In this document: one piece after another, positions 4,728 to 63,223 of the stretch
Layout: every line of letters starts with the position of its first letter
Numbering within the stretch: position 1 is the stretch's first letter
Assembly (NCBI GenBank): GCA_000004985.1
Contig: GG738925.1
Length of the DNA stretch: 64,000 bases
Direction: 5' to 3' (one strand)
Origin: Naegleria gruberi
Taxonomy: Eukaryota
Notes under the pieces: model-generated
What the model saw: the letters and a program-made list of their open reading frames with translations, nothing else
Told to the model about the DNA's origin: nothing
Database searches by the model: none
Made by a program: the position numbers and the translations under genes

Positions 4728-6062
4728 ATGGCACAACATGAAAATGTAATCCTTCTTCTCGATATCAGCATTTCATCATTTCTCTGGGTAGGAAAGTTTG
4801 TTATGCATCGGAAAATTCTAAAACTCATTCCAAACTATCCGTGTCTAGCGTGTGTCTTTACTCCGAATGAAATTGCACTTCGGAAAGAAGCAATTAGAAG
4901 GATGATGGGAAAAGTTCCACCAATGCTCGTTCCCAAGTGTTTTTCTTTTGGAAAAAATGAAAAGGAAGAGGAAAATATATTAGAAATTATATTGGAAAGG
5001 GATATTTCAATATTTGATGGAACATTGATATTTTCATTAAGAAACAATGAAAGAATTTGTGAGGAAATTGTAAAGAAGGATGGATTGAAATTGGCCATGA
5101 TGAGTTTGAATTTAAAAAGTAATGAAAATATTGTAAGAAATGCAGTTCAGCAAAATGGAATGGCTTTACAATTTGCTCATTACAAATTGAGGAGGAATAG
5201 AGAAATAGTTTGTTTAGCTCTAGATCAGAATGGAATGGCTTTACAATATGCTGCCAAAGAATTGAGACAGGAGTTGGAAATTGTATTGAGAGCTGTTTCA
5301 CAAAATGGTAGTGCTTTTTCATACGCCATGTGTCACAGGACCAAAAAAACAAGAAGTAGACGAAAGGTTTCTCTTAAACTCGATCCTCAAGTGATTGAAA
5401 CAGCTGTTAAAAGTGGAGCTGCACTATCAGGATACACCAAACAAGTCAGAGAGTTGAGAGAAAATCCAAATGTTGCCTTGCAATGCATAAGAAATGGTAA
5501 TTCAATCTTTTCAGTTAGTGTCAGACTAAGGGAAGACCCAGAATTTAAAACACTTGCCGATCAAGCTCGTAATGAATTTGTTCAAAAGATTATACTTTCA
5601 AAAAGTTCTCAATTTTTGAATCATGTTTCTCCTCCACGAACTAAAACTCCATACGAATCCTTAAAGGAATTATATATCAATAGTGGATTCGATTACAGGA
5701 AAGATCCAGAAATGATTGCTTATGCTTCACGATTTTCAGGCTCAATAGACAGAGAACGAGTTCTAAAATCAATTAGGAAAATTCCACTGACATTAGTTTT
5801 CATGGATTATTATGCAGATGAAGACGAATTTCTTGAAACAGCTTTGAAATATTTGGATGGTTCACATGTTTCATTGTTCGAAACGTTTTTTGCTAAAGTT
5901 TTTAATTCAAAGTCCAGAATGGATTTACTACTGAGATCAGTTGAGGAAAATATTGAGATTGTGAAATATCTCAGCACTACAAAGATTGTTGGACAATATG
6001 AATTTATGGAAAAGGTTATTCGAATCATACTGAAAAAGATGACTAAGAAACCATACCATTGA
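4728..6062 (+). CDS. repeat protein with tandem ~35-aa repeats (NGMALQFA...ELRxxxEIVLxAVxQNG...), DUF4116-like
   Basis: 444-aa ORF with ATG in A-rich context and several copies of an ALQYAxxELRxxxEIV repeat. The family name is from memory and unverified. Confidence 0.5.
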   Translation: MAQHENVILLLDISISSFLWVGKFVMHRKILKLIPNYPCLACVFTPNEIALRKEAIRRMMGKVPPMLVPKCFSFGKNEKEEENILEIILERDISIFDGTLIFSLRNNERICEEIVKKDGLKLAMMSLNLKSNENIVRNAVQQNGMALQFAHYKLRRNREIVCLALDQNGMALQYAAKELRQELEIVLRAVSQNGSAFSYAMCHRTKKTRSRRKVSLKLDPQVIETAVKSGAALSGYTKQVRELRENPNVALQCIRNGNSIFSVSVRLREDPEFKTLADQARNEFVQKIILSKSSQFLNHVSPPRTKTPYESLKELYINSGFDYRKDPEMIAYASRFSGSIDRERVLKSIRKIPLTLVFMDYYADEDEFLETALKYLDGSHVSLFETFFAKVFNSKSRMDLLLRSVEENIEIVKYLSTTKIVGQYEFMEKVIRIILKKMTKKPYH

Positions 6063-11752: not shown

Positions 11753-12255
11753 ATTTTTTTTTGATTGTAATTGATCAAACCTTTTTGTAATTGACTCACG
11801 AATAATCGTGTTAAATGACTGATGATAAAATTGCAAGATCTAATGTTCTGTTCTTTGAGTTAAAGCTTCCGAATAAACAGAATTAACAGAGTATGGGTTG
11901 GAGGACCTCTCTAATTATGATGATAGTATTGGGAATTGTTGTTAGGTATTTAGCTTAGTATGTTGCGGAACTTCTCTTAATTCTTTTGCGACCAAAATCA
12001 GTAATTTGTCAATTTGGATTTGATTGGAAGATGCAAACAACATTCAAGAAAATTGTGACTATTAATTCAACAATCTAATTGAATCTTAAATATTGTAAAA
12101 ACAGATTGGATTGTTGAACAAGAAAAACAACATTAAAAAAATCACACAACTACGATCAAACCCTCTATCTGAACCAAAACTCAAAATCATCGAGTGCATT
12201 GTTTATACCATATTTGGAATATTACTATTCTTGCAAGTTAAAAGTTATTGTAAAA

Positions 12256-14163
12256 ATGTTATCTCATTACTCTAAATTAAGTATCATAACCTTCGTGGTC
12301 TTTCTCCGCCTTGTTATGATCACCAATGCTTACTTGCCTTACACTGAGACTCATCCAATGAAATTTGACACACAATTCTCCATTTCCCTTACTAGCTCAA
12401 ACACTATACTAAAGCCAGGTCCAATTACTAGATATTCTGATGCATACGAAAAGGCAATTGCTTTCTTTAGAAATCAGTATGGTCTCGATATTGCTGGAAA
12501 TGGCACTCGTTTGCCATCTGGTTGTGGGCTATTTACAGGAACCAATTCTGAATATGTTGTCAATTATGCCAAAGTTCGTGGTTTTCAAATTGTGGCTGGT
12601 AGTCAGGATGTTGGAGTCCATGAGGATTCGTTCAGAATTGTGGTAAGTGGGCCGATTGTTTCGAATGGAAATTATGGAAAGAATGGCGCCTTAATTGATT
12701 CAAATTCAGTTTTACATTTTGGATTTTATACCTTCTTTTGGAGAAGTAATGGAACAGTTCTATTTCCAAGAGTAATTTACTCTGGAATGATGCCAATCAA
12801 GGTCAATTCTAATTCTTCCATGATTAATTTCCAATTGACGTCCAGTTTATTTGGTCAAGGATATGCTCGTGGTTCTATTTTACAAAGAACTAATCCACAA
12901 AATGGAAAATTGTTTACAACCATTATCAGTTCTCATTCCTACCAAATGTCAATCACTGATTTCTCTCCAAAATGTTCAGTAATTACCTCTGAAAAGGATA
13001 TCTTCAATGAGGATATTGTAATCAAGTGGAATAATGTGCTATTGAGTGTGATTCGTGATTTGAAGGTATCTGCTCCAATAGCTTCAAGACAATTGGCTAT
13101 TCTTCACTCTGCTATTGATGATTCGCTGGTTGACTGTAAGAATTTCTCTTCAAATTGCTCTCGTTCCACTTTAGTGTCCATTATTTCACATGCTGCTAGT
13201 CGAGTATTGAAAAGTTTATACCCAACTCAAATAGATTGTTTCAATGCTGCTTTGAAAAGTGCTTTAGAATGCAATGAATGCAAAGAAGTATCCATTCCTT
13301 ATTTGGAAAATATCGGAAAGCCAGGAATTTTGGCAGCTGACAGAATATTAAAAGAAAGACAAGATGATGGAAGTTTGGACTTTACAGAATATCATTTCTC
13401 TGATGGTTTTATGAATTATCAATCACATGCTCCAAACTTTGTAAGAATTCCACTACTTCCTCATTGGTCAACTGTAAAACCATTTGTCATTCAAAATGCT
13501 TCATTGTATGATCAAGGACCACCTCCACCAATTGACTCACCAATATTTGAAAAAGATTACAATGAAACTCTTCATTTTGGAAGAGAAGATTCGAGTGTGA
13601 GAACTCAAGATCAAAGAAAAATTGCGTTATTTTGGGCTGATGGAGCTGGAACGAGTACTTCACTCGGACATTGGCTCATTATTTTACAAAACATTATTCG
13701 AAATCAGAATATTAAGGATACCTTTCGAATATCTACCTTATTTAAAGTATTGACAATTACAATGGCAGATGCTGCAATTGTTTGTTGGAATCACAAGTAT
13801 AAGTACAATGCCTTTCGTCCAATCACAGTCATAACTGAAAGAGAAAGCAATGAATGGTCACCACTCTTGTCAACTCCTGCATTTCCTGAATATTCTTCAG
13901 GTCACTCAACTCTATCTGCTGCTGCTTCGACAGTATTGAGCTTATTATTTGGCTCTGACGAAATATCCTTTGAGAGCGTTTCTGAGGGTCTAATTCACAC
14001 CATTCGAAAGTTCACTAAATTATCAGAGGCAGCCAAAGAAGCTGGCAAGTCAAGAATTTATGGTGGAATTCACTTTGAATATGCCAATCAAGCAGGGTTC
14101 GGTTCTGGCATTGCCATTGCTCAAACCGTCTTTCACAAATTATGCAATTTTACCACGTGTTAA
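12256..14163 (+). CDS. secreted PAP2-superfamily / vanadium-dependent haloperoxidase-like (acid-phosphatase-like) protein
   Basis: Signal peptide MLSHYSKLSIITFVVFLRLVMITNA. C-terminal PAP2/haloperoxidase motifs KYKYNAFRP...PEYSSGHS...SRIYGGIHFEYAN (KxxxxxxRP / PSGH / SRxxxxxH). Confidence 0.7.
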   Translation: MLSHYSKLSIITFVVFLRLVMITNAYLPYTETHPMKFDTQFSISLTSSNTILKPGPITRYSDAYEKAIAFFRNQYGLDIAGNGTRLPSGCGLFTGTNSEYVVNYAKVRGFQIVAGSQDVGVHEDSFRIVVSGPIVSNGNYGKNGALIDSNSVLHFGFYTFFWRSNGTVLFPRVIYSGMMPIKVNSNSSMINFQLTSSLFGQGYARGSILQRTNPQNGKLFTTIISSHSYQMSITDFSPKCSVITSEKDIFNEDIVIKWNNVLLSVIRDLKVSAPIASRQLAILHSAIDDSLVDCKNFSSNCSRSTLVSIISHAASRVLKSLYPTQIDCFNAALKSALECNECKEVSIPYLENIGKPGILAADRILKERQDDGSLDFTEYHFSDGFMNYQSHAPNFVRIPLLPHWSTVKPFVIQNASLYDQGPPPPIDSPIFEKDYNETLHFGREDSSVRTQDQRKIALFWADGAGTSTSLGHWLIILQNIIRNQNIKDTFRISTLFKVLTITMADAAIVCWNHKYKYNAFRPITVITERESNEWSPLLSTPAFPEYSSGHSTLSAAASTVLSLLFGSDEISFESVSEGLIHTIRKFTKLSEAAKEAGKSRIYGGIHFEYANQAGFGSGIAIAQTVFHKLCNFTTC

Positions 14164-14310: not shown

Positions 14311-17300
14311 ATGTCTGCAACATCAGCTGCCTCAACATCCGACAATACAAAGAAGAGAAAAACATCATTGATGATGGAAGCCTCGGAGGCTACTGAAATT
14401 TTTGAAAATGATCAGAATGAAAAGTTGATTGATGAAATTTCTGATGCGTTGCATAGATTGTCCCTCCAGAAGCAAACTGAAGAAATGATCAAGAAATTGG
14501 TCGAGCAAAAAGATCAAACAAGTGGTGAGAGTAAGAAATCATCCACTTTTGATAAACTTGCAATTCTTCAACAAATGCAACAGGAAGAGATGGTAGTGTT
14601 AAAAGTTGGTGGTATGTTGTGTGAAATTGTATTTTTAACAATCAATTTATTATGATGATTGACAGGTAAATTCTTTTATACAACAATGAAAACTTTGATG
14701 GGTGAAAGAGGTAACTCTAAAGTTCAAACAAAGAAAATTATTATTGCTGATAAAGTTGGTAAAGCAACTGCTGGTAAGAAGAGAGGTGAAGATGAAGAAG
14801 ATGAAGAAATGGATGAAGGTGGCGATGAAGAAGGTGGTGATGAAATGGATGAAGATGGTGAAAGACCAAAAGAAGACGGTATCTCATCACTTGAATATGT
14901 TTGTGCTCAAGATAACTTGTTTAAAGTCATGTTTGATTCTGGTTTTGGTATTGAAAGAGATGAAGCAAACAAGTCTGCAATTTCATTCCCTGACAGAAAT
15001 CCAGATTATTTCGAATATATTTTAGAACACTTAAGACAAGGTGGTAAAGTTAAATCTTTGGGTATTGAAAAGTTGAATGCTGACGAATTAGAAAATATTT
15101 TAGAAGAATCAAGATATTTTGCAACTGAAAAGTTATCAGAATATATCTTATTCTTACTTGACAAGTATCACAAATATGATTCAAATTTATCTAATTATGC
15201 TGAAATTGAAGAAATTTTGAATGATTCTGTACAAAATTTGAAAAAGGTTGAAATTCCACTCGAACAAATTCAACAAAGACTCAAATCATTTGAAGATTCA
15301 ATCAACGAATCCAAGAAGAGTGTTGGTGAATATTCACGCAAATTGGTTGAACAATATCAAAACTTTATTTTAGGTACTGATTTAGAAAGTGATTTATCTG
15401 TAAAGATTGATGTTTCAGGTCAAATTTTCACAATTCCATTCACAAGTTTGAGAAAGTATGAGAATTTCCTCCTTTCAAAATACATCTTATCACCAAACTT
15501 TGGTTTAAATGAAAATGGTTGTGTATTTATTGATAGAAATCCAAAGTTATTTGCCCTTATTCATGGTTACATTATCAGTGGTGGTAAATTTAATCATTTC
15601 CCAAAGAATCTTTCACAAGAAAAGAAACTTCAATTGAAACAAGAAGCTGAATTCTATGGTTTGACAACACTTGTTCAAGAATATCTTGATCCACTTCGTT
15701 ATCCAGTTGAAAAGATTGGTAAAGATAATATTGAATTGAAAGAAAAGGAAGATAAATTGAGAGAAATCTTTGCAAAGGAAAGAGAATCACCATTATTGAA
15801 TGATCCATATCTTTTATTATCACCCCTCTTCCAAAATTTAGAAGAAATTAAGAATCAAGAAAAGTATAGAATTGATATTGGTCACTGTCCAAAATTATTA
15901 GATTTAACAGATAAGACTAGATATTCTAGACAAGTTTCTAAACCAAGACTTGTTAATAATTTGAATGGTTTCAAATTGAATTGGCATAGATTCACTCAAG
16001 GTGCTTTGGATGGTCTTGATTGGAATAATGTTTTTGCTGCAGGTGGCGGTATTCTTGGTTGTTGTTTGAAAGATGATAATTTTGATAATAATACTGCAGT
16101 CTCAACAATTTATCCAACTTCTGTTAATGAAAGAACTGAAACAAATACTTCAAGAGCAGTATCAGTCATTGATGATGAAAATGATGAAAATGAAGCTGCT
16201 GATTTTGGTTTTTGGAGAAGATTTTCAAAGAAGGCAACAACTAAATCTACAGGTGAAGAAGGAGATGAAGAAGAGGAAGAAGAAACAGAACAAAAACAAG
16301 AAGTTATTAGCAAGTATCCAATTGGTAGATTCCACAATTTAGATTCTATGGGTAATTCTACTTTATACAGTCAATATAGCAGTCATTCCTATGCAAGTCT
16401 TGATCAAAGAAAGGCCCGTTCCTCTGAACTTGCTAAAACTATTTCTGAATCCACTACCTCAAACAAGGAAAATGCTCGTTTTATCCCTGATGCCAACATT
16501 CCTGCTCCATTTAAAAAATCAGATATCGATCTTTTCTTATATGCTTTGAGTGAAGAAGAAGCTGAAGAAAAGATTAAACATATTTATCAAACTATCAAGA
16601 AGAATATGAGTAGAAGATTATTAATGAATTATGCTGGAGATAAGATGGAACATAAGGGCTACTATTCTCATTTGAAGGATGAAGAGAAAGCTAAATGTAT
16701 TTATCAAGATGGTATTATTAGAACTGAAGAAGGTACTTTGATCAATGATGACGTTTTGGTTGTTAGAACTAAATTTGCTGTCACATTCTATTGTTACAAA
16801 CTCAGACCAATTCAAGTTGTTTTGAGAATTTACAAATCACCTGCAGAAGTTTTGTTAGGTTTTGATATTGATTGTGCAACTATGGGTTTTGATGGAAATC
16901 AAGTTTGGTCAAGTGCAAGAGCAAGAAGAGCTTTAATGTATCATACTAATCTTGTTGATGTTGATAGACAATCTACAACTTATGAATATAGATTGTACAA
17001 GTATAGTAAGAGAGGTTTCTCTGTTTCAATTCCAGGTTATGATACTGCTAAAGTTCAAAATCAATTGTTACAATATCCACGTAGATTCCCATTCACTTCA
17101 ACTGAATATTTGTTGCACGGTTTAGCAAGACTTATTGCTTTTGATAATTCTTGTCGTGCTAAGAATCCAAAACATATTTTAGGTGTTTATGATGATCGTG
17201 ATCCAAATGCAGCTCAATTAAGAGAAGAAAATAAGGCTCTCATCCTTTCTGGTGAATTGAATGTAAAGTCAGACTATCTTGATTTGAATATTATCAAATC

Positions 17301-18225
17301 ATATAAGTATCCTCCAAGCTTTATCTTTACTACTTTAGAAAAGACTCGTCAGATTGTATCACTTATTAATTTGAAACCTGAAGAACAAAGAGACATTAAG
17401 AATTGGCGTGATAGAGAAAAGATTAGAAGAACTTTCAGAAAAGGAGAAAGTGTTAAATTTGATAGTAGATTGAAAAATAATACTAATATCAAAATGGAAA
17501 GAGATCCAGATTGGAAACCTCACTTTATTTATTCTTTGAATGATATTGATACTGTTCTCAATAGTGAAAAGTTTGATGCAAGAATCTCCAACAAGATTCA
17601 ATTCCTTACCGTTGATCCAGGAACTCAGAAAATTGGTTCCTTCCATCCAAAGGATATTAACTTTTATAGAGATGCCTATCAACCAGTTCCATTCTCTAAA
17701 TTACCAATTTTGAAGGAAGCCAAGATGAGAACTGTTTGGTTCAAGGCAATGACTGAACTCCCTCCTCAACATGTTATCGACGAAAGAGAAAAACATGTTA
17801 AGGAAAATACAAACCAATACGGTTTTTATAATGATAATAAGGATTACACCAAGGATCCATTCGAAGAAAGATATCAAAAATTCTCAATGTCCAGACCAAA
17901 TCCAAATTCACAAAACATCTATGACAAGTGGGTTCAAGAAGAAATTTGGTTTGAAGCATTCACACCAGAAGAAAGCAACAAGATTGAACAAGAGTTTAGA
18001 AAGTTTATTGTTTATGGAAATCCTGAAAGCTTTGCAATTTCAGGATCTGAACTTATTGACTTCTCCTATTGGAGACTCTTCCTTGATAGTAACCATCCAA
18101 CTCATCCAAACACTGCTGCTGCCTTGCATAGAAAGAATTTCTGTGAATCTGGTCATTACTTTGGAGGAATTGATGAAGATCAAGTTGGTACTGTTACAAC
18201 CCTCTCTTACAGATCTTTCTATTAA
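14311..18225 (+). CDS. large protein with two BTB/T1 (KCTD-like) domains and a C-terminal region carrying a nucleotidyltransferase-like D-x-D signature. Exons: join(14311..14611,14666..18225), proposed.
   Basis: Two T1/BTB-like segments (ISSLEYVCAQDNLFKVMFDSGF...NPDYFEYILEHLRQG; SVKIDVSGQIFTIPFTSLRKYENFLLS...NPKLFALIHGYIISG). Acidic tracts. Downstream ...AAGGGILGCC... and ...KKSDIDLFLY... The upstream ORF 14311..14655 joins in frame through a 54-nt GTATGT...GACAG intron; that join is an inference. Confidence 0.55.
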
Positions 18226-44831: not shown

Positions 44832-47800
44832 ATGAATACACGACCAAGGAGAAACTCAACCCTCCTAAAATCACAACAACAACTATCTGGTGTTAGTCAA
44901 ACAACATCAGAGACAACAATTGGTACTTCATTGAACGATCTATTCAGAAATCAAACCGTAAAGCAAATTAAAGTCATCAAGGAAAAATCAGAGTATGTAC
45001 ATGAGACTCTATACCATTTCACTCATAAAATAATAATTTAAATAATTTAAATAATTATAAATTACGATCGGAAAAGTGAGGAAATTACAATTAAACAAAA
45101 TCAATTGAGAAATCTTGTCGGAGAAAGATATCGAGATATTATTGAAGCAGCAGGTTTGTTTTAAATATAATAATGAAAATATTGATCATTGAATTATTAG
45201 ATTGTATGGATTCTATTCAACAATTATGTTTGGCATCTACAAATCAATTTATTGAAATGACAAGACTAATTGATGATTATAAGAATAATACACAAGAAAG
45301 TATTATCTTGACAGGTGGTGATTCATCATTGGATGTTAATTTGTTATTGAAACATTTTTCTCAAATTGTGGATTGGGTAAGTATTAAATTTTATAGAGTT
45401 TTCTAGAGTTTTATTTTTTGGTTTAGATGTTGAATTGTGTTAATAGTGGATTATATTTCTATGCTGCTATTTGTTTCTTGGCATGTAATAATATCTTGAA
45501 ACAATTAAATATGAAACATTCACATTCTATTCATGTGAAAATTAGAGAATTAAATCAATTGAAAGCTAAATTAATCAAATCATGTAAAAATATTATAGCT
45601 AATCAAACTAATAATTTGGTAAGTTCCAAATAATATTTAATGTGAATATTCATAAAATTAGAGTTTCATTCAATGTGTATGTGCACTATTGGTTTGTGAT
45701 AATTTGACTGAAATAGAATTGGAGAATTTAATTTTGAAAGAGAGGAGAATATTTATGGAAAAGATTAAATATAACACTCTTGAGGAAAAACTAAATGCAA
45801 TAGAGTTAATTTTTGATATATTTTATGATACTGTATTTGTGATTAATAATTTATTTAAAAAGTCAAATGACAAATTATTTATTAACATATTTTTAGAAAA
45901 ATTGATTGAATTTAATTTTATGAATTCAAATTTTAAAATTACAACACTTAAAAAACAAGAATATCATTTTGATTTATTACAAAATAGTAATATAATACCA
46001 ATTCTGTATAAGGGATCTTTTTCTAAAATATATGAAATGTACATTAAAGAAGTAAAGCTTTCAAATGAATCACAACCTGAGAAAATTAAGGAATGGATTA
46101 AAGATTCTTTAAAGTTTATGAACAGTTTTGTTACAAGAATAATTAATGAAACTGATAACATTCATGATTTGATAGAAATTAAGAAAAAGGTAAAGGACAT
46201 GTCCTTCAGTGATTCATTAAAAGATATTCAAAACAGATTCAAGATTATATTGGAATATTGTTGCGGATTTTCTATTGATTTTGACTCGGAAAGAACAGTT
46301 AAGAAGATATGGAAGGAAAATGCAGCAATTTTTTATGATATGAATTTATCTTGGCACACTTTGAATTTAGTTTGTAAACAACAAAAGTATGAAATTATCA
46401 AGAAGAGATTTAAAGAATTAACATTTGATATGTGTATTTCTGAGAATATTTCATTTTCAAATATTGGTGAAGAAATATGGAAGACTCCAATGTTAGATTC
46501 CAATATTTTGTTTGATAGATTCTTGTCAAATCACAAATCTTCAAGCAAGACAGATAATATCTTTTTACAATCTATCACAATATATGGTAGTACAAGAGAG
46601 GTGAGAAGAAAAATAAGAAAGGAAGTTTTTGAATCACAAATTGTTCCATTATGCAAGGAAATTTTCCTTCTCATTCAAGATTTACAAAACAAGGAAGAAC
46701 ATGCTGAACTTGAAGAATTGATAATGACACAATATTTCAATTTCTATAATAGTGCCACTGAAATTGTAAAGAAATTCATTCGTGATCCTTCACAATTTAA
46801 TAAGGATACAAATAATAGCTTTTCAGATATGGACATTAAGTTATATTGTGGTAGAATAATACAATCTATGAGAAAATTGTTTACAGATATTTTCATTGAA
46901 TTGAATGTTAAATTCTCAATGTTCAGTAATGATGAAAGCTTTTTAACAATTATAAGAAAGCTTAGAGCTCAAATAACAAATCTCAAACAAAAGAAGAAAA
47001 CAGATACTTCTCCATACTTGACGAAATATTTGGAAATTGACCAAATATTCGAGTCACTTTACTTGGAAGCATTCAATGAATGGATAGAACAGCAAACTGA
47101 TAGTTTTGTAACTCAAGTTAAATCAGAGTTATTAAATACTGATCAATGGAAGAAGGGTAGAAAGGATACATTTGTTAGTTACAATGAGCTTAATCTGCCT
47201 TTTAAGACTTCATTCTCAATTTACAATGCAATTTATGAACTTTCTCTTGCCATTTATGCCGTTGGTGATTTTAATGTAGACAACAATGTGATTGAAAAAT
47301 TATCAAACAAAATCTGCACACGTGTATTTGGTGATTATAATGAATGGATTAATTCTCTTATTGAAAAATCTAAAAAACAGGAAAAATCCAACGAATCAAA
47401 AGTTGAAGAAACTTCAGCAGAGGAATCAACAGAATCTCAACTATCATTGGAAGAGTTTATTTGTGAGGATGGATTTTTACAATTATTGTTTGATGTTAAA
47501 TATTTAGGATATGCCTTATTGGGAGGTAATCAACAAGTTATTGAAAAATTGAACTTGAAATCACAACTTGAACCTAATGAACAACTCTATGTCAAGGCAG
47601 TTTCCTTAATTTTATCATTTATTGATCCAATCAATTGGGAAACCTATGAAAAGTCATTTAATGCACTTGTATTACAATGTGTAAATAGAAATAATCTTTT
47701 CACATGTAATTTAAATAAGAATTCATCAATTCATGGAAGTGCCACAAACCTTGGTGGTGAATCTCCACTCACGAACACAACAGAACAAGACAATTTTGTC

Positions 47801-48085
47801 AAGTTAGTGAAACCAGAAACCATCAATATCCCACTTTTACCAATTCCAAAGAGAGATTTAAAGAGCTATACATTGGCTGCTTCATATAATCATTTGGAAT
47901 TCACAGAGAAGGATATTCAACTCAATCTCTCTACCAAATCTAATGGAACTCATTCTTCAAAAACATCCCTGAATGACAGTACAGTCTTTGGCAGTTTTGT
48001 TGGTAGTTTACAAAATCTAATTTCCAATCAAGAAGAAGTGGAGAAGGAAACACCTTCCAGAACATTTGCATTCAACTGGTTCTAA
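44832..48085 (+). CDS. conserved oligomeric Golgi complex subunit 1 (COG1). Exons: join(44832..44992,45077..45153,45201..45376,45427..45618,45662..48085).
   Basis: Spliced N-terminus ...LRNLVGERYRDIIEAADCMDSIQQLC... matches the COG1 signature (ELRQMVGERYRDLIEAAD). Four 5' introns of 84, 47, 50 and 43 nt (GTATGT/GTTTGT/GTAAGT...AG) link the small ORF-track pieces to the 798-aa ORF. Confidence 0.75.
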
Positions 48086-48409
48086 TTGAAAAACAGTAAA
48101 TATTGTAATTTCTGTAAATTTCACAAATAGTAACCAATAATCCTTTTACATGTTTGTTCATTGTTCTAAGTACTTCACTTAAGCGTTAACCAAATGATTT
48201 CCTTGGATTTCAAGTTCCTCATAGATTTGTCCTCTGCTTGTTCCTCAATCAGCGGATAAATACTAGGTGCTGACCTGTATTTTAGCTGTTGGAAATAAGG
48301 ATAAGTGCTAAGGATATGCTACCTGTATCGGCTGATAGCAACATTTCTGCTCTTGGGTCTTTATCAAAAATATCTAGTTCTTGAAAGAGAATAACTTTGA
48401 AAAAAAAAG

Positions 48410-50063
48410 ATGATGGTTCGTTCAGCCTCGGCAGCATCACCAACTGTGATGAAGGCTTGCCTGGCACTTCTTGTTATTGTTGCAACAATAACATCCTTAT
48501 CGTGCATTCATGGAGCATCCGCATCAACAAAGGCTTTAAAGTACACTCAAGTGAATAATATTATTGTGATAATGCTTGAAAATTGGTCCTATGATGGACT
48601 GTTTGGAACGTATGTTTCATCTCAATTTTACTATTATATCCTGATTGATGAATTTATTATTACTGCTATGATGCTAATATTTGCTACATGAATACAACTA
48701 CTAGTTATTCCAAGGGTAATGGTATTGCTAAAGCATCAAGTGAAGCCAAAACACAATTAGATGACAACGACCAAGCCTATTCAACACTGCCCCAAGTACA
48801 AGCAGGTCTTCCACAAAACATTTCAAATGGTCCCTTTGATTTGGCTCAATATTTTGGTCTAAATGCCAAGACAATGGATGTTACTCATGCTTTCTATACT
48901 CATCAATATCAAATGAATGGTGGTAAAATGAATAAGTATGTTCCATACAGTGCTGCTAAAGGTTTAGTCATGTCATATTATGATCTTGTTGGACAAGGTC
49001 ACTATATGGCTCAATTGGCTCAAAATTACACACTTTTTGATTATTGGTTTCAAGGTGCTTTTGGTGGAAGTATGCTCAATCACCAATGGTTAATTACTCC
49101 TGGTTGTCCATATTTCCCAAATCCTCCTTCATCAATGGTTAATAGTATAAGTGGAACAACTGGTAAAATTATTTATCCAGAAAAGGCAATTACACCTGAT
49201 AATTATGTTGTTAACACAGCTTACTCTGTTAACAAACCATATCCTGTTACAATGCCACCACTTGCAAATTTAGTTCCATCTCAAAATACAACAACCATTG
49301 GTGATTTATTAACTAGTGCTGGAATTTCTTGGAAATGGTATTCTGGAGGATATAATGATGCTATGAATGGAACTCAAGATTCATCTTGGCAAGCTCATCA
49401 TCAACCTTTTGTCTTTTTCAAGAATTATGAAGTTGGTACTGAAGGAAGAAATCATTTGAAGGATGAAACTGATTTATTCAATGATTTGAAGAATAATCAA
49501 TTACCATCTGTTTCTTTCTACAAACCATTGGGAAAGGACAATATGCATCCAGGTTATTCTACTGTTGGAGGTAGTTCTGAAGAAAAATTGAAACAAGTTA
49601 TTGAGGCTGTTCAGGCCAGTAAATATTGGAATAATTCTATGATTTTCATTACATTTGATGAATATGGTGGAAGATGGGATCACGTAGCTCCACCTAAAGT
49701 TGATAGTAAGTATTTGAATTTGAATAATTAACACTATATTTCACATTAGAATGGGGACCAGGTTCTAGAATTCCAACCATTGCAGTTTCACCACTCGTTA
49801 AGAAAGCCAATGTTAATTCAGTTTATCATGATACTACTTCAATTATGAAATTCATTCAAGATAGATTTGGATTACCAAGTATCTCAACAAGAGATGCTGC
49901 TCAAAATCCATTAGATGATATTTTCCAACCAATTGTTCAACCAAGTGTTGTTACAAGTTCAGCTATTTTCCAACCAAGTGTTATTACAAGTTCAGCTTCA
50001 ACTTTGAGCATTCTTACATTCACTGCTTTAATTTCTTTCCTTTTTGCTTTCATTACTTTCTAG
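48410..50063 (+). CDS. phosphoesterase-family protein (bacterial AcpA / non-haemolytic phospholipase C type, PF04185-like), secreted with a GPI-like C-terminus. Exons: join(48410..48609,48705..49705,49750..50063).
   Basis: Signal peptide. IIVIMLENWSYDGLFGT|YSKGNGI (AcpA-like FGTYP.NGI) restored across a 95-nt GTATGT...CTACTAG intron. ITFDEYGGRWDHVAPP and, after a 44-nt GTAAGT...CATTAG intron, WGPGSRIPTIAVSPL...IMKFIQDRFGLP. C-terminal hydrophobic tail LSILTFTALISFLFAFITF. Confidence 0.8.
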
Positions 50064-50133
50064 AAATCATGTTTGAATCAAAATAAATAATACATCTTTC
50101 TGAAATGATGACATTATAATCATAAGAAAAAAA

Positions 50134-51972
50134 ATGAAACGAAATCAAATTGATGATAGATGTGATGATGATCATGGTGATATTATTAAACAAGCAACAC
50201 AATGTAAAAAGATGAAAATGACTAGTAAAACATTCTCCGATCTTCCACAAGATGAATTATCTGTTGTTTTACAATATTTACCGATCGGAAGCCTATTAAT
50301 GTTTTCATTGGTTTCAAAGGCTAATTATGACTTTGTTCGTGATCAAGTGAAGAATAATATTTGCAAATATGTTGTCTATGAAAATAACTCTTGGTCATTG
50401 GTGGATGCTTTAAGGTTAGTAATGAAAAAATCATAATGACATCATTTCCTTTGTTCAATAGACAAAAGAAATCAATGCGGTTATCAGAGTGTTCTAATGA
50501 AATTGAAGGATTTATGAATGAGATTGCAGAAAGAAATGGATCCATTTCAGAAATTACAAGTCATTTCAAAGCAGATAATATTTCCTTTCCAGATTTATAT
50601 CATTTATTGGATATTAGAAAAGGTAGTGAAGAGGAAGAATTCCAACAAGTCCAAGTTGAAACTATATGTTTAGAAAATACACCAGATAATAAGCCACCTC
50701 AATTAGTTGGAAATGATGAAAAAGGATATCACTTTGAAAAAAAGATGAAAACTATTGAGGGAGAGCCCCTTACTTATGATTTGAAAAGTCTCTCAATTGA
50801 CATGACTCTTACTAGATCTAAGCTTTTAAAGATTATGACCAAATTGAAGAATTTAGAGAGCTTGAATCTAATTGTTGAGCAAGAATATTACAGACCAAAA
50901 ACAAGTCGTGGAGGAAGAGGTCTTGGCGGAGGATTGTTCAGTATATCAAGTGGAGAAGATGATACACAAGATGGGAAGGGAGAAGCCTTCGATGATGAAT
51001 TTATCTATGTACCAATTATGAAGAAACTCAAAAAATTGGTGATTGAAAGGGGTTTTGATGATGATAGATTTATATTTGAAATTAGTTCATTTTGTCCAAA
51101 TCTTGAACATTTGCATTTTGTTTGCAGAGAATCTGTTGATGATAATATGTTAGAGCATCTTGCCAAATACTGTCCTAAAATGAAGTATCTAAAGATTAAA
51201 AGCGATGATGGTGCAACTCAATTCGAGTTGGAAATTACAGATAAGGGATTGGAGCATTTTTTGGAGAAGGAAACTCAAATTGAAGTTATTGATCTTGAAC
51301 CAGCAGCTAATATTTCAGGGTCCATATTTAAAAGACTTGGAGATTTCCCAACATTGAAGAGCTTTAGAACTCAAAGAGTTTCTTATAATGGAGATTGTTC
51401 AGATCAAGAGGAAGATATCTTCTTTGGTGGTAATACAAATCCAAACTTGGAATATTTAGATATTGGACCAGGTTTTAGCTTTACTAAGGAGGAATTTGAG
51501 AAGTTATTCATTTCTTTGAAGAAATTTGCTCCAAACCTAAAAGGATTTGGTGAGATTGGACAAGTGTCTGAATGACTATTCACAAACGTCAAATTGTTGG
51601 GAGATCATTTTTGACGACTATCGAGAAAAAATTGAAACTTTGGAACTAGATTCGTGTGAATACTCAGACCTACACCTTTACACAAATCTAAAGAGAGTTA
51701 TTGGACGTGATCTGGAAAGATCTGAGGGAGACAAATTAATTCCCAATCCTAATGTGGTTGAACTCACTGAACTCTCCAATGTATCCAAAGAATCTACCTT
51801 ATCCAATCTTGCAGATATTTTCCCAAATATTAAGATTATCAAAGATGCAACAAGCAAGACACTTGATTTCTTGGTCAATAATCCAAATGCTTGGCCTCAT
51901 CTTGTACATATAGAGTGGTCTGAGTATGAATTCAAGTCAACAAAAAAGAATATGAAGAATTATGCAAATTAA
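50134..51972 (+). CDS. F-box/LRR-like protein. Exons: join(50134..50414,50462..~51550) plus a frame-broken continuation to 51972.
   Basis: F-box (LPQDELSVVLQYLPIGSLLMFSLVSKANYDF). A 47-nt GTTAGT...CAATAG intron joins the first two ORF pieces. The 51547..51972 ORF continues the same protein (LELDSCEYSDLHLYTNLKRV...) but sits in a different frame, with only a 15-nt GTGAGA...AAG candidate 'intron' to bridge it. Confidence 0.45.
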
Positions 51973-61278: not shown

Positions 61279-62238
61279 ATGTTTCTACCAAAACATCCAT
61301 CAAAGCCTTCAGTTACTTCCTCTTCTTCACTTGGAGTTGATCAACGACAAGGCTCTGTATCATCATCATCTTCAACAATTGTCTCACACCCTAAAAGGAG
61401 AATTACACCAACTCTTGTAGATCCCTCAACAGCTACAACAACTACCACATCGGGATTGACCACTCAACAACCAATAACATCATCGGAAGGATATTCTCAT
61501 AGTAATAGTAGTGGTAGTAGTAGTTTATTTAAAAATCTAAATGATGATGAAGAATCAATTAATAGTTCATCTGATGATGATGATTATGATGATTATAATG
61601 ATGAAGATGGACAATTAACAGATGGAGGAGAATATGAAGAATATGAAGAGGATAATGATGAAGAAATGATTCATAATATTAATGAATCCATTCAATTACA
61701 ACAACCTCCTTCATCAAAAAGAGTTAAAAGATCAACATCAACATCTTTATCATCTGGTCAAAAAAAACCAATCATAACCAGAATTATTGAAGAATATTCT
61801 GAAAATGAAATTCAACAAGATACTAACTTTTTAACAAATTATGATATATCAGCAATATTTTCATCATTATCATCTACTAAAAGAACCATATCATCTATTA
61901 ATTCTTCATCTATTAATAATTCTAATAATTCTAATAATTCTAATACATATTCATTCTATTATTTAAAAGATGATATAGTATTATATGAAATGAAAAATAG
62001 ATTACATTTTGGTAAATTAAATGAAACTGAAAAGTTTGAAAAGAAATTAACTAATGATATTATTAATAAATTAAATAATAGTATAGATTTAAATTTATAT
62101 CCACAAATAAGTAGAGGTGATATTAAAATTACACAAATTAAATTAAAAACAACGATTGAAATTATAACACCCATTGAAATTAATTGTTATTATTCATATA
62201 ATAATATTGAATATATTATTATTACAAAACGATTCTAA
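61279..62238 (+). CDS. S/N/D-rich hypothetical protein; 3' end runs into the assembly gap
   Basis: ORF with aaaaaATG start, poly-S, poly-D/E-Y and N-rich tracts. The ORF 62174..63223 spanning the N-run suggests the gene continues across the gap; the track reading frame across Ns is arbitrary. Confidence 0.4.
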   Translation: MFLPKHPSKPSVTSSSSLGVDQRQGSVSSSSSTIVSHPKRRITPTLVDPSTATTTTTSGLTTQQPITSSEGYSHSNSSGSSSLFKNLNDDEESINSSSDDDDYDDYNDEDGQLTDGGEYEEYEEDNDEEMIHNINESIQLQQPPSSKRVKRSTSTSLSSGQKKPIITRIIEEYSENEIQQDTNFLTNYDISAIFSSLSSTKRTISSINSSSINNSNNSNNSNTYSFYYLKDDIVLYEMKNRLHFGKLNETEKFEKKLTNDIINKLNNSIDLNLYPQISRGDIKITQIKLKTTIEIITPIEINCYYSYNNIEYIIITKRF

Positions 62239-62243
62239 TATAT

Positions 62244-62801
62244 NNNNNNNNNNNNNNNNNNNNNNNNNNNNNNNNNNNNNNNNNNNNNNNNNNNNNNNNN
62301 NNNNNNNNNNNNNNNNNNNNNNNNNNNNNNNNNNNNNNNNNNNNNNNNNNNNNNNNNNNNNNNNNNNNNNNNNNNNNNNNNNNNNNNNNNNNNNNNNNNN
62401 NNNNNNNNNNNNNNNNNNNNNNNNNNNNNNNNNNNNNNNNNNNNNNNNNNNNNNNNNNNNNNNNNNNNNNNNNNNNNNNNNNNNNNNNNNNNNNNNNNNN
62501 NNNNNNNNNNNNNNNNNNNNNNNNNNNNNNNNNNNNNNNNNNNNNNNNNNNNNNNNNNNNNNNNNNNNNNNNNNNNNNNNNNNNNNNNNNNNNNNNNNNN
62601 NNNNNNNNNNNNNNNNNNNNNNNNNNNNNNNNNNNNNNNNNNNNNNNNNNNNNNNNNNNNNNNNNNNNNNNNNNNNNNNNNNNNNNNNNNNNNNNNNNNN
62701 NNNNNNNNNNNNNNNNNNNNNNNNNNNNNNNNNNNNNNNNNNNNNNNNNNNNNNNNNNNNNNNNNNNNNNNNNNNNNNNNNNNNNNNNNNNNNNNNNNNN
62801 N
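62244..62801. other. assembly gap (558 N)
   Basis: Run of n characters. Confidence 1.
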
Positions 62802-63223
62802 TATTAACTTGTAAATATATTTATGTACATAATAATACATTTATTAAATATAGAAATAAATATTATGATATTATAAATGATAGAGATTTATTCATGGAAG
62901 ATGATGAAGATGATTCTGAATATTTTATTAAAATGGCAATTAGACAATTTTCAAATTATTATTTAATATGTACATTAACAAATAAGGGAATTGTTGATAT
63001 TTATAAATTTGATGATTCAATTAAACAAGAAAATGAAAAAATTTCATTAGAATTTAGATTTTCATTAAAAAAATTGAATTTTATAACTCAATATAAAAAT
63101 AATGAAAATAATTTTGAATGTGAATATTTAAATTTTATAAATTCACAAATAATAATTATTTGTTTAAAAAATGGTGATTTAATTAGATTTGAACCTATTT
63201 TATATTTTAATTATAATATTTAA
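62802..63223 (+). CDS. 3' coding fragment downstream of the gap (…KYIYVHNNTFIKYRNKYYDII…FEPILYFNYNI*), possibly the end of the 61279 gene
   Basis: Open frame from the gap edge to a TAA at 63221..63223. The frame relation across the gap is unknown. Confidence 0.3.

What the first reader, a model, noticed from the sequence alone, without database searches (positions are those of the whole stretch)
48410..50063. Bacterial-type AcpA/phospholipase-C-family phosphoesterase, secreted and probably GPI-anchored
The spliced product has the PF04185-type phosphoesterase motifs (ENWSYDGLFGTY.KGNGI; FDEYGGRWDHVAPP; WGPGSRIPTIAVSPL) typical of bacterial acid phosphatase AcpA, non-haemolytic PLC and plant NPC enzymes. 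It is placed between an N-terminal signal peptide and a C-terminal hydrophobic GPI-like tail. The gene carries two host-type short introns, so it is resident rather than contamination. This is a plausible ancient horizontal acquisition, repurposed as a surface phosphatase or phospholipase.
Basis: partly seen in the sequence, partly recalled or inferred. Interest (0 to 1): 0.55.

Follow-up and report, generated by a model that had tools for sequence, protein, structure and literature searches.

The report
Bacterial-type acid phosphatase gene in Naegleria
This is a real, intact, already-annotated Naegleria gruberi gene for a membrane-tethered AcpA-type phosphoesterase, whose nearest relatives outside a few related amoebae are all bacterial, so it is an ordinary old bacteria-to-amoeba gene transfer.

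Summary
Window 48410-50063 (+) holds a three-exon gene with introns of 95 and 44 nt. Its 504-aa product is identical to GenBank XP_002669551.1, 'phosphoesterase [Naegleria gruberi]'.

It matches Pfam PF04185 end to end (241 bits). All catalytic residues are present, including a serine nucleophile as in AcpA. The predicted structure is closest to Francisella AcpA.

The best subfamily model is the Burkholderia-type acid phosphatase, TIGR03397. The protein scores 334 bits, just under the cut-off of 362.75, which its bacterial relatives pass. The PC-PLC model and the plant and fungal PLCs are far more distant.

The gene is resident. It has host-like codon usage and eukaryotic neighbours, and a 98%-identical environmental strain shows purifying selection (dN/dS 0.15).

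Its closest relatives (52-59% identity) lie on eukaryotic metagenome contigs, one of them acrasid-like, and form a clade with it (499/500). Everything else is bacterial (over 580 species, 40-47% identity). The donor is unresolved.

The protein has an N-terminal signal peptide. It ends exactly at a weak hydrophobic tail preceded by Ser/Ala, which fits a GPI signal but is untested. Its relatives instead carry a transmembrane helix plus a YxxΦ tail.

The finding is ordinary and of low interest.

The parts
48410..48609 (+). Exon 1. It encodes aa 1-66 and the first two bases of codon 67. It includes the signal peptide and the metal-binding E57-N58 of the ENWSYD motif.
   Evidence: The spliced product is identical to XP_002669551.1.
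48410..48523 (+). Signal-peptide coding part, about aa 1-38. The hydrophobic core is aa 16-33, and the likely cleavage site is after ASA at 36-38. M14 aligns with the start Met of the orthologues and may be the real start.
   Evidence: Hydropathy, alignment A1, and the AlphaFold helix at 12-32 with low confidence. This is a heuristic; no dedicated predictor was available.
48610..48704 (+). Intron 1: 95 nt, GTATGT...AG, phase 2, 26% GC.
   Evidence: It is identical in strain contig L001.
48705..49705 (+). Exon 2, the bulk of the catalytic domain. It carries D125, H128, the nucleophile S189, H298/H299, H348, D385/E386 and D392/H393.
49706..49749 (+). Intron 2: 44 nt, GTAAGT...AG, phase 1, 20% GC.
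   Evidence: L001 has a 6-nt indel here while the exons have none.
49750..50063 (+). Exon 3. It encodes the end of the catalytic domain (WGPGSRIPTIAVSPL), the stalk, the hydrophobic tail and the TAG stop at 50061-50063.
49926..50000 (+). Disordered Ser/Thr/Pro/Gln-rich stalk, aa 460-484, with the duplicated unit IFQP(IVQP)SV(V/I)TSSA(S). The candidate GPI omega sites S481/S482 lie here.
   Evidence: Sequence. pLDDT averages 45-59 across the 10-residue blocks covering aa 461-490. The omega-site assignment is a heuristic.
50001..50060 (+). C-terminal hydrophobic tail, aa 485-504 (TLSILTFTALISFLFAFITF). It ends at the stop codon with no cytosolic residues.
   Evidence: The 19-residue Kyte-Doolittle maximum is 2.24, against 2.6-3.3 for the transmembrane helices of the orthologues, which are followed by tails of 9-31 residues.

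Best explanation
This is a functional Naegleria gruberi gene, already annotated as XP_002669551.1. It encodes an AcpA/Burkholderia-type member of the PF04185 phosphoesterase family.

Proposed mechanism, with shown and inferred steps marked:
- Targeting (inferred): an N-terminal signal peptide sends the protein into the ER.
- Fold (shown by sequence and model): the ~400-residue catalytic domain has the AcpA fold.
- Catalysis (inferred from AcpA and NPC4 chemistry): Ser189 acts as nucleophile, activated by a centre formed by Glu57, Asn58, Asp385 and Glu386. His128, His298/299 and His348 bind and protonate the phosphate ester. A phospho-enzyme intermediate forms and inorganic phosphate is released.
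- Anchoring (inferred): a flexible Ser/Thr-rich stalk leads to a weakly hydrophobic C-terminal peptide. This peptide is most likely exchanged for a GPI anchor at Ser481 or Ser482. The enzyme would then sit on the outer face of the plasma membrane and, after engulfment, on the inner face of phagosomes.
- Role (inferred): a broad-specificity acid phosphatase that frees phosphate from prey or environmental organic phosphates.

Origin: the gene came from bacteria into an ancestor of at least Naegleria and an acrasid-like heterolobosean. It has since acquired lineage-specific introns, host codon usage and eukaryotic membrane anchors.
For: Gene model and organism:
- The spliced product is an exact match to the N. 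gruberi protein, and five window neighbours are also exact N. gruberi proteins.

Family:
- PF04185 at 241 bits over the full profile.
- Best PDB sequence hit is Francisella AcpA, 2d1g, E=5.6e-21.
- The AlphaFold model (pLDDT 85, pTM 0.83) has AcpA as top Foldseek hit, E=4e-25.

Subfamily:
- TIGR03397 acid_phos_Burk scores 334 bits. PC_PLC scores 108 bits against a cut-off of 580.
- The closest bacterial homologues pass TIGR03397 at 440-469 bits.

Catalytic residues:
- E57, N58, D125, H128, S189, H298/299, H348, D385, E386 are present.
- S189, H298, H348, D385 and E386 are invariant, and D125, H128 and H299 are at least 90% conserved, in 25 sequences. E57 and N58 lie in the well-conserved ENWS motif but are not in either list.
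- They align to AcpA E43, N44, H106, S175, H287/288, H350, D386/387.
- They also correspond to the NPC4 catalytic set E23, N24, D76, H79, T158, H264, D299, E300 (PMC9837106).
- That paper states the nucleophile is Ser in AcpA and Thr in NPC4.

Resident and under constraint:
- Two GT-AG introns.
- GC3 of 0.208 against neighbours at 0.252 +/- 0.056, and RSCU correlation of 0.94.
- A 98.1%-identical environmental contig has the same exon structure, with 9 synonymous and 5 non-synonymous changes: dN/dS 0.15, binomial p=8e-4.

Bacterial origin:
- In two database searches the only hits above the bacterial ones are 10 unnamed sequences. Those whose contigs were inspected lie among eukaryotic genes.
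- One such contig carries a DPP3 that is 74% identical to Acrasis kona DPP3.
- These sequences and N. gruberi form a clade in 499/500 NJ bootstraps.
- At least 582 bacterial species from many phyla carry relatives at 38-46% identity.
- Fungal RePLC and plant NPC4 match only short stretches, at E=7e-11 and 4e-6.

Anchor:
- The only hydrophobic segments are at the two termini.
- The tail is less hydrophobic than the transmembrane helices of the orthologues and has zero residues after it.
Against: - No enzymatic, expression or localisation data exist for this protein.
- The family also contains phospholipases C and a glycerophosphodiesterase, so substrate cannot be read from sequence.
- The protein scores 29 bits below the curated TIGR03397 cut-off.
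- No dedicated signal-peptide or GPI predictor was available, so the omega site is a heuristic. A tail-less transmembrane anchor is not excluded, and every orthologue uses a true transmembrane helix with a cytosolic tail.
- The tree is neighbour-joining only, rooted on one distant outgroup. The eukaryote clade is nested in a bacterial subgroup in about 63% of replicates and is sister to all sampled bacteria in about 23%. The direction and donor of the transfer are therefore inferred from distribution rather than proven.
- Absence from N. fowleri, Willaertia and A. kona rests on their not appearing among the top hits, not on a genome search.
Confidence: 0.68

Rival explanations
1. The enzyme is a phospholipase C or phosphodiesterase acting on membrane phospholipids of prey or host cells, in the manner of PlcN or NPC, rather than a phosphomonoesterase.
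For: PF04185 includes PlcH, PlcN, fungal RePLC, plant NPC4 and a glycerophosphoethanolamine phosphodiesterase, and all of them appear as structural neighbours. Many homologues are auto-labelled 'phospholipase C' by JGI. A membrane-proximal enzyme could plausibly reach lipid head groups.
Against: PC_PLC TIGR03396 scores only 108 bits against a cut-off of 580, while the acid-phosphatase model scores 334. The nucleophile is Ser as in AcpA, not Thr as in NPC4. There is no extra C-terminal domain: Pfam covers aa 49-443, and the rest is signal peptide, stalk and tail. The NPC4 paper reports that its C-terminal domain is indispensable. Sequence matches to PLCs cover only short stretches.
Confidence: 0.15
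2. The gene is an ancient, vertically inherited eukaryotic gene lost from most lineages, or it passed from eukaryotes to bacteria. On this view it is not a bacterial acquisition.
For: The eukaryotic sequences form their own deep clade with about 55% internal identity. In about 23% of bootstrap replicates that clade is sister to all sampled bacterial sequences rather than nested among them. The rooting relies on a single long-branch outgroup.
Against: No named eukaryote other than N. gruberi appears among the top hits of either search, although N. fowleri, Willaertia magna, Acrasis kona, fungi and animals are in the database. The bacterial relatives span at least 582 species and more than 10 phyla. 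Plant and fungal PF04185 proteins are far more distant than the bacterial ones. The clade shares indel and motif states with a bacterial subset, namely P0076, P0120 and P0086. Intron positions differ in every lineage and one copy has none, as expected for introns gained after transfer.
Confidence: 0.08
3. The C-terminal hydrophobic stretch is not a GPI signal but a tail-less transmembrane anchor, or the protein is simply shed. The protein would then be a type I membrane protein like its orthologues.
For: All eight orthologues with a complete C-terminus carry a 23-29-residue transmembrane helix followed by a basic tail of 9-31 residues. In most of them the tail contains a YxxΦ motif. The N. gruberi tail aligns with those helices, and AlphaFold models it as a helix at aa 483-503.
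Against: No residue follows the hydrophobic stretch. Its hydropathy is lower, 2.24 against 2.6-3.3. It is preceded by small residues (SSAS) at the spacing expected for an omega site. The same stop and tail are kept in a second strain.
Confidence: 0.3
4. The gene is bacterial contamination or an assembly artefact in the Naegleria scaffold.
For: The best named database hits are all bacterial.
Against: The gene has two spliceosomal introns. GC is 35.6% and GC3 20.8%, like the neighbours, whereas bacterial homologues reach 45-67% GC. It is flanked by eukaryotic genes on a 182-kb scaffold. An independent metagenome contig has the same flanks.
Confidence: 0.01

Closest known systems
Burkholderia-type acid phosphatase subfamily (NCBIfam TIGR03397, acid_phos_Burk), as found in soil Chloroflexota, Gemmatimonadota, Acidobacteriota, Bacteroidota, methanotrophs and others
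   Same: The alignment is full-length at 38-48% identity. All catalytic residues are the same, including the Ser nucleophile. Both are secreted proteins of about 450 residues with an N-terminal signal peptide. Some Chloroflexi members are also surface-tethered, through LPXTG-like motifs followed by a transmembrane segment and an RRR signal.
   Different: The N. gruberi protein scores 334 bits, below the curated 362.75 cut-off that the bacterial proteins pass. It lacks a loop of about 10 residues after 'LPQ'. It has NMHPGYS where the bacterial proteins have NEHPGY. It carries introns and a eukaryotic stalk with a GPI-like tail.
Francisella tularensis AcpA (PDB 2d1g), the structural prototype of the family
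   Same: It is the best solved-structure match by sequence (E=5.6e-21) and by fold (Foldseek E=4e-25). Residues E43, N44, H106, S175, H287/288, H350 and D386/387 all have counterparts.
   Different: Identity is only about 23%, and several loops differ (TM-score about 0.6). AcpA is a soluble secreted or periplasmic virulence-associated enzyme without a membrane anchor.
Heterolobosean/environmental eukaryotic clade (P0002-P0007, P0068, P0133, P0134, P0140)
   Same: Identity is 52-59%, and the clade is monophyletic in 499/500 bootstraps. The members share a signal peptide followed by the KY-x-NV start of the mature domain, and a C-terminal membrane segment.
   Different: These proteins end in a strongly hydrophobic transmembrane helix plus a basic cytosolic tail. 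The tail usually carries YxxΦ (YQLV, YSEI, YTTV, YYKV, YYRV, YQDM), which is a lysosomal or endocytic sorting-type signal. N. gruberi alone stops at the end of a weaker hydrophobic stretch. No intron position is identical between lineages.
PlcH/PlcN phosphocholine-specific PLCs (TIGR03396), fungal RePLC and plant NPC4
   Same: They share the same Pfam family and core fold and an equivalent catalytic constellation.
   Different: Sequence matches cover only short stretches (E=3e-15 to 4e-6). NPC4 uses a Thr nucleophile, and extra C-terminal domains (about 650-700 aa in PlcH/N; the CTD in NPC4) are absent here.
Mammalian lysosomal acid phosphatase (ACP2): a type I membrane protein with a YxxΦ tail. 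This is a functional analogy recalled from general knowledge, not homology.
   Same: It has the architecture seen in the orthologues: a lumenal phosphatase domain, one transmembrane helix, and a short tail with YxxΦ.
   Different: It belongs to the unrelated histidine-acid-phosphatase fold. The analogy applies to the orthologues rather than to the tail-less N. gruberi protein, and it was not tested here.

Membership tests
Pfam PF04185 phosphoesterase family | Profile HMM score above the gathering threshold over the whole domain | tested here: met
   241.1 bits against a cut-off of 23, E=2.5e-71, profile positions 2-356 of 356, protein aa 49-443.
Pfam PF04185 phosphoesterase family | AcpA-like fold within the alkaline-phosphatase-like superfamily | tested here: met
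   The AlphaFold2 model has pLDDT 85 and pTM 0.83. The top Foldseek PDB hits are 2d1g AcpA (E=4e-25), then PlcN, GPE-EP, PlcH, RePLC and NPC4, with sulfatases only at E~1e-6.
Pfam PF04185 phosphoesterase family | Catalytic constellation: a Glu-Asn pair, Asp-x-x-His, a Ser/Thr nucleophile, a His, and an Asp-Asp/Glu pair | tested here: met
   E57, N58, D125, H128, S189, H348, D385 and E386 are present. They align to AcpA E43, N44, H106, S175, H350, D386/387 and correspond to the NPC4 catalytic residues listed in PMC9837106. In 25 sequences, S189, H348, D385 and E386 are invariant and D125 and H128 are at least 90% conserved; E57 and N58 are not in either list.
Pfam PF04185 phosphoesterase family | Phosphoesterase activity | not testable with these tools
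   This needs an enzyme assay.
NCBIfam TIGR03397 acid_phos_Burk (Burkholderia-type acid phosphatase subfamily) | Score at or above the curated cut-off of 362.75 bits | tested here: not met
   The score is 333.9 bits. Eukaryotic clade members P0003 and P0002 score 351.8 and 361.0. The closest bacterial relatives score 440-469 and pass. The protein is best described as a diverged offshoot of this subfamily, not a certified member.
NCBIfam TIGR03397 acid_phos_Burk (Burkholderia-type acid phosphatase subfamily) | Serine nucleophile and a single-domain architecture of about 450 residues | tested here: met
   S189 lies in the FGGS motif aligned to AcpA S175. There is no further domain beyond the signal peptide, stalk and tail.
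Phosphocholine-specific PLC (TIGR03396; PlcH/PlcN) | Score at or above 580.25 bits, length of about 700 aa with C-terminal domains | tested here: not met
   The score is 108.3 bits. The protein is 504 aa with no C-terminal domain. The PDB PLC chains that match are 432-686 residues long and match only in part.
Plant/fungal non-specific PLC (NPC4, RePLC) | Thr nucleophile and the NPC C-terminal domain, with close sequence similarity | tested here: not met
   The nucleophile is Ser189. NPC4 matches only aa 347-399 (E=3.7e-6) and RePLC only aa 300-398 (E=6.9e-11). The C-terminal domain is described as indispensable in PMC9837106 and is absent here.
GPI-anchored protein | N-terminal ER signal peptide | tested here: inconclusive
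   There is a hydrophobic core at aa 16-33 followed by an ASA motif. The orthologues have equivalent N-termini. This is a heuristic only; SignalP was not available.
GPI-anchored protein | A C-terminal moderately hydrophobic peptide that ends the protein, preceded by a short spacer and small omega and omega+2 residues | tested here: inconclusive
   The tail TLSILTFTALISFLFAFITF is terminal, with Kyte-Doolittle 2.24 and nothing after it. S481-S482-A483-S484 lie just upstream. The features fit, but no GPI predictor was run.
GPI-anchored protein | Release by PI-PLC, or chemical detection of the anchor | not testable with these tools
   This requires an experiment.
Bacterium-to-eukaryote horizontally transferred gene | Closest relatives outside the recipient lineage are bacterial, and other eukaryotes are absent or much more distant | tested here: met
   
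Bacterium-to-eukaryote horizontally transferred gene | Well-supported nesting of the eukaryotic clade inside a bacterial clade | tested here: inconclusive
   In the NJ tree of 65 sequences and 434 columns, the eukaryotic clade is recovered in 499/500 replicates. Its sister lies within a Methylacidiphilum/Methylococcaceae/P0076 group in about 63% of replicates and is all bacteria in about 23%.
Bacterium-to-eukaryote horizontally transferred gene | Integration in the host genome, not contamination | tested here: met
   The gene has introns, host-like codon usage, eukaryotic neighbours on a 182-kb scaffold, and a second strain contig.

The most novel reading that the evidence does not exclude
Heterolobosean amoebae may have recruited a bacterial AcpA-type enzyme as their membrane-bound phagolysosomal or surface acid phosphatase. 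It would have been fitted first with a type I transmembrane helix and a YxxΦ lysosomal-sorting tail, a convergent copy of the architecture of animal lysosomal acid phosphatase. In N. gruberi that anchor was then switched to a GPI signal by loss of the cytosolic tail, moving the enzyme to the cell surface. The C-terminal anchor might even descend from the transmembrane-plus-basic segment of the sortase-type signal seen in the closest Chloroflexi homologues.
Probability: 0.25. Interest if true: 0.4.

Novelty: new member of a known kind. Interest (0 to 1): 0.2.

Why it matters
It matters only modestly. The case is clean and well documented: a secreted bacterial hydrolase has been domesticated by bacterivorous amoebae, gaining introns, host codon usage and eukaryotic membrane anchors. 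The clade also shows a within-family switch between a transmembrane helix with a YxxΦ tail and a GPI-like tail. The finding adds one data point to a process already known to be common. About 2.7% of N. gruberi genes are reported as bacterial-like (PMC9928731), and 1253 HGT candidates are reported in Acrasis kona (PMC11589745). The gene and its family assignment are already in public databases. It opens no long-standing question.

Tried and rejected
- Synteny: tblastn of window 40-56 kb ORFs against L002-L004 found only the phosphoesterase itself, so there is no conserved gene order.
- Shared introns: none are at identical positions. The L006 intron lies 4 nt from N. gruberi intron 1, which is not enough to call it homologous.
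- Rfam and tRNA scans of the window gave nothing that helps identify the organism. Identification came from an exact protein look-up instead.
- The first Biopython NJ bootstrap timed out and was replaced by a numpy NJ.
- The AcpA structure paper (PMID 16899453) and the N. gruberi genome paper (PMID 20211133) are not held. AcpA residue numbers were therefore derived from the alignment.
- Searches for the accession numbers, for Naegleria with PF04185, and of the supplements of the A. kona and Naegleria pangenome papers found no mention of this gene.
- Cluster look-ups gave no organism names for the environmental eukaryotic homologues. Only the L003/L004 organism could be placed, as acrasid-like.
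- Contamination, pseudogene and PLC readings were considered and rejected or down-weighted, as set out under the rival explanations.
Full report
**1. What is there**

The window is AT-rich (about 32% GC) and gene-dense. Splicing 48410-48609, 48705-49705 and 49750-50063 removes two GT-AG introns. These are 95 nt (GTATGT..AG, 26% GC) and 44 nt (GTAAGT..AG, 20% GC). The result is a 1515-nt ORF encoding 504 aa.

An exact-sequence look-up shows this product is identical to XP_002669551.1 / EFC36807.1 / UniProt D2W2D2, 'phosphoesterase [Naegleria gruberi strain NEG-M]'. Five other ORFs of the window are identical to N. gruberi proteins on the same 182,562-bp scaffold.

The gene is already annotated with the same family name.

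**2. Family and catalytic machinery**

- Pfam PF04185 matches end to end: 241 bits against a cut-off of 23, E=2.5e-71, aa 49-443.
- Among NCBIfam models the best is TIGR03397 'acid_phos_Burk', at 333.9 bits. This is just under its curated cut-off of 362.75.
- The phosphocholine-specific PLC model TIGR03396 reaches only 108 bits against 580.
- The closest bacterial homologues pass TIGR03397 at 440-469 bits. Two other members of the eukaryotic clade score 352 and 361. The eukaryotic proteins are therefore a slightly diverged offshoot of that subfamily.
- The best solved structure by sequence is Francisella AcpA, 2d1g (E=5.6e-21, aa 45-447). PLCs, fungal RePLC (E=6.9e-11) and plant NPC4 (E=3.7e-6) match only short stretches.
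- An AlphaFold2 model built on a 25-sequence alignment has mean pLDDT 85 and pTM 0.83. Its best Foldseek PDB match is again AcpA (E=4e-25), followed by PlcN, a Streptomyces glycerophosphoethanolamine phosphodiesterase, PlcH, RePLC and NPC4.

The catalytic residues E57, N58, D125, H128, S189, H298/H299, H348, D385/E386 and D392/H393 are all present. In the 25-sequence alignment, S189, H298, H348, D385, E386, D392 and H393 are invariant, and D125, H128 and H299 are at least 90% conserved. E57 and N58 lie in the well-conserved ENWS motif but appear in neither list. These residues align with AcpA E43, N44, H106, S175, H287/288, H350 and D386/387; the numbering was read from the alignment. They also correspond to the catalytic set described for NPC4: E23, N24, D76, H79, T158, H264, D299, E300 (PMC9837106).

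That paper states that AcpA uses a serine nucleophile and NPC4 a threonine, and that NPC4 needs an extra C-terminal domain. The Naegleria protein has the serine and lacks any extra domain. An AcpA-like phosphomonoesterase is therefore the more likely activity. A PLC or phosphodiesterase activity cannot be excluded from sequence alone.

**3. Topology**

Only two hydrophobic segments exist, aa 6-38 and aa 482-504.

The N-terminal segment looks like a signal peptide, with a core at aa 16-33 and an ASA motif before S39. The orthologues start at the position of M14 and have equivalent signal peptides directly before a conserved K-Y-x-N-V.

After the catalytic domain comes a low-confidence Ser/Thr/Pro/Gln-rich stalk with a duplicated IFQP..SV.TSSA unit. 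Then comes TLSILTFTALISFLFAFITF, followed by the stop codon.

This tail is less hydrophobic than the transmembrane helices of the eight orthologues with complete C-termini. Its 19-residue Kyte-Doolittle maximum is 2.24, against 2.6-3.3 for theirs. Nothing follows it, whereas the orthologues have basic tails of 9-31 residues. Small residues (S481, S482, A483, S484) sit just upstream.

These are the textbook features of a GPI-attachment signal, but no dedicated predictor was available. A tail-less transmembrane anchor remains possible. The GPI transamidase is described as conserved among all eukaryotes (abstract of PMC9098846). The Naegleria pangenome paper mentions evidence of GPI-anchored proteins (PMC9928731).

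**4. Resident, constrained gene**

- GC is 35.6%, GC3 is 20.8%, and the RSCU correlation with 23 neighbouring ORFs is 0.94. These values lie inside the neighbours' range: GC3 0.252 +/- 0.056, r 0.87 +/- 0.07.
- Bacterial homologues reach 45-67% GC.
- An ENA metagenome contig (L001) is 98.1% identical over window 46985-51289 and has the same three ORF pieces and flanks.
- Between the two strains the CDS has 9 synonymous and 5 non-synonymous differences and no indels. The only indel in the gene is 6 nt in intron 2. dN/dS is 0.15, and the excess of synonymous changes has binomial p=8e-4.
- The stop codon and the hydrophobic tail are conserved.

Contamination and pseudogene readings are therefore rejected.

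**5. Relatives and origin**

A search of 5.8 billion proteins gave 1232 hits at E<=1e-10:
- the strain variant;
- seven to eight unnamed JGI sequences at 52-59% identity;
- more than 110 clusters at 41-48% identity whose names are all bacterial, including Chloroflexia, Ktedonobacteraceae, Dormibacteraeota, Terriglobales, Thermomicrobiales and Mucilaginibacter.

The contigs carrying several of the 52-59% group (P0003, P0005, P0068, P0140) were inspected and carry eukaryotic genes. These include PP2C, BTB, PARP, CRAL-TRIO, RCC1, DPP3, cathepsins, Nup84, DNA polymerase delta subunit and SNF2. Most of these copies contain introns.

The DPP3 next to P0068 is 74% identical to Acrasis kona DPP3 and at most 55% identical to any other. 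That organism is therefore an acrasid-like heterolobosean.

A profile built from the eukaryotic clade recovered only three more environmental fragments and again no named eukaryote. Yet N. fowleri, Willaertia magna and A. kona are in the database. The gene thus appears patchily distributed even within Heterolobosea.

A scan of one genome per bacterial species found at least 582 species with relatives. The best 80 are 38-46% identical and spread over Gemmatimonadota, Chloroflexota, Acidobacteriota, Bacteroidota, Methylococcales, Alphaproteobacteria, Verrucomicrobiota, Planctomycetota, Spirochaetota and others.

In neighbour-joining trees rooted on Francisella AcpA, the eukaryotic sequences form a clade in 199/200 and 499/500 bootstraps. 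Their sister lies within a Methylacidiphilum/Methylococcaceae/Magnetospirillaceae/P0076 group in about 63% of replicates. P0076 is on a clearly bacterial contig. In about 23% of replicates the sister is all sampled bacteria.

The donor is therefore unresolved and the nesting is only moderately supported. The distribution still argues for a single bacterial acquisition:
- one small heterolobosean clade against hundreds of bacterial species in many phyla;
- plant and fungal family members far more distant;
- lineage-specific introns, none at identical positions across lineages;
- one intronless copy.

That acquisition would predate the split of Naegleria and the acrasid-like lineage, followed by losses. 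This fits what is already described for these amoebae. About 2.7% of N. gruberi genes are bacterial-like (PMC9928731). A. kona has 1253 supported HGTs, many of which gained signal peptides and introns (PMC11589745).

**6. A detail worth recording**

All eight other eukaryotic clade members with a complete C-terminus end in a strong transmembrane helix plus a short basic tail. In six of the eight the tail carries a YxxΦ motif: YQLV, YSEI, YTTV, YYKV, YYRV or YQDM. One further has FETL.

From general knowledge, this is the architecture of lysosome- or endosome-targeted type I proteins such as animal lysosomal acid phosphatase. It suggests a phagolysosomal membrane acid phosphatase. N. gruberi alone has lost the tail, giving a GPI-like signal.

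Several of the closest Chloroflexi homologues carry LPXTG-like motifs (PTTG or LPRTG) followed by a transmembrane segment and an RRR sorting signal. Surface tethering is thus a recurring theme in this subfamily. Whether the eukaryotic anchor descends from the bacterial one is speculation.

**7. Verdict**

Refinements:
- The protein is AcpA/Burkholderia-type rather than PLC-type.
- The acquisition is shared with other heteroloboseans.

Caveats:
- The GPI anchor, the substrate and the donor are inferences.

The gene and its family assignment are already public, and bacterial-to-amoeba transfer of secreted hydrolases is commonplace. Interest is low (0.2). I class it as a new member of a known kind.

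Noticed in passing
window 62244-62801: There is an assembly gap, a run of 558 N. The ORFs listed across it (62174-63223 + and 62235-62840 -) are artefacts. Sequence beyond the gap is only 18% GC, and 56-62 kb is about 26% GC, clearly more AT-rich than the rest of the window at about 32%.
   Followed up: partly
P0002, P0003, P0004, P0007, P0068, P0140 (loci L002, L003/L004, L087): The eukaryotic orthologues end in a transmembrane helix plus a short basic tail with a YxxΦ motif (YQLV, YSEI, YTTV, YYKV, YYRV, YQDM). This is a lysosomal or endocytic sorting-type signal. The N. gruberi protein alone lacks any cytosolic tail.
   Followed up: partly
P0008, P0009, P0019, P0032 (bacterial homologues, alignment A1): The closest Chloroflexi-type homologues carry C-terminal LPXTG-like motifs (PTTG, LPNTG, LPRTG) followed by a hydrophobic segment and RRR. 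These are sortase-type cell-surface anchoring signals on an acid phosphatase.
   Followed up: no
L006 1262-3175 (P0005): One eukaryotic paralogue or orthologue has an extra segment of about 190 residues of unknown nature between the catalytic domain and the transmembrane helix. The same JGI sample (3300062135) also holds a second copy, P0140 on L087.
   Followed up: no
L001 (ENA ERZ929261, run ERR1078381, project PRJEB11402): This environmental metagenome contig is 98.1% identical to window 46985-51289, so a close N. gruberi relative is present in that sample. The intergenic stretch just after the gene (window 50064-50133) is by far the most diverged part, at 26%.
   Followed up: partly
L003 and L004 (JGI 3300037860): Two contigs of about 21 kb have the same gene order (phosphoesterase, RCC1-like repeats, DPP3) but are not identical. 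They look like alleles or a recent duplication in an acrasid-like organism, whose DPP3 is 74% identical to that of Acrasis kona.
   Followed up: partly
window 12199-14163 (+): This ORF has a C-terminal PAP2-superfamily phosphatase domain (E=3.8e-8). It is another, unrelated, membrane phosphatase gene in the same window.
   Followed up: no
window 50134-51575 (+): The downstream neighbour looks like an F-box protein (weak PF00646 hit on the L001 copy). It has a probable short intron near 50416-50462 and a leucine-rich C-terminal part. It is an ordinary eukaryotic gene directly flanking the transferred one.
   Followed up: no
window 4728-6062 (+) and 6892-8754 (+), 14659-18225 (+): Neighbouring ORFs include a DUF4116-repeat protein (E=4e-33) and proteins with RCC1/BTB and BTB_2 domains.
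   Followed up: no
window 50061-50090: Read past the TAG stop, the frame continues K-S-C-L-N-Q-N-K and then TAA. This could be the remnant of a lost basic cytosolic tail, but eight codons in AT-rich DNA are not significant.
   Followed up: no
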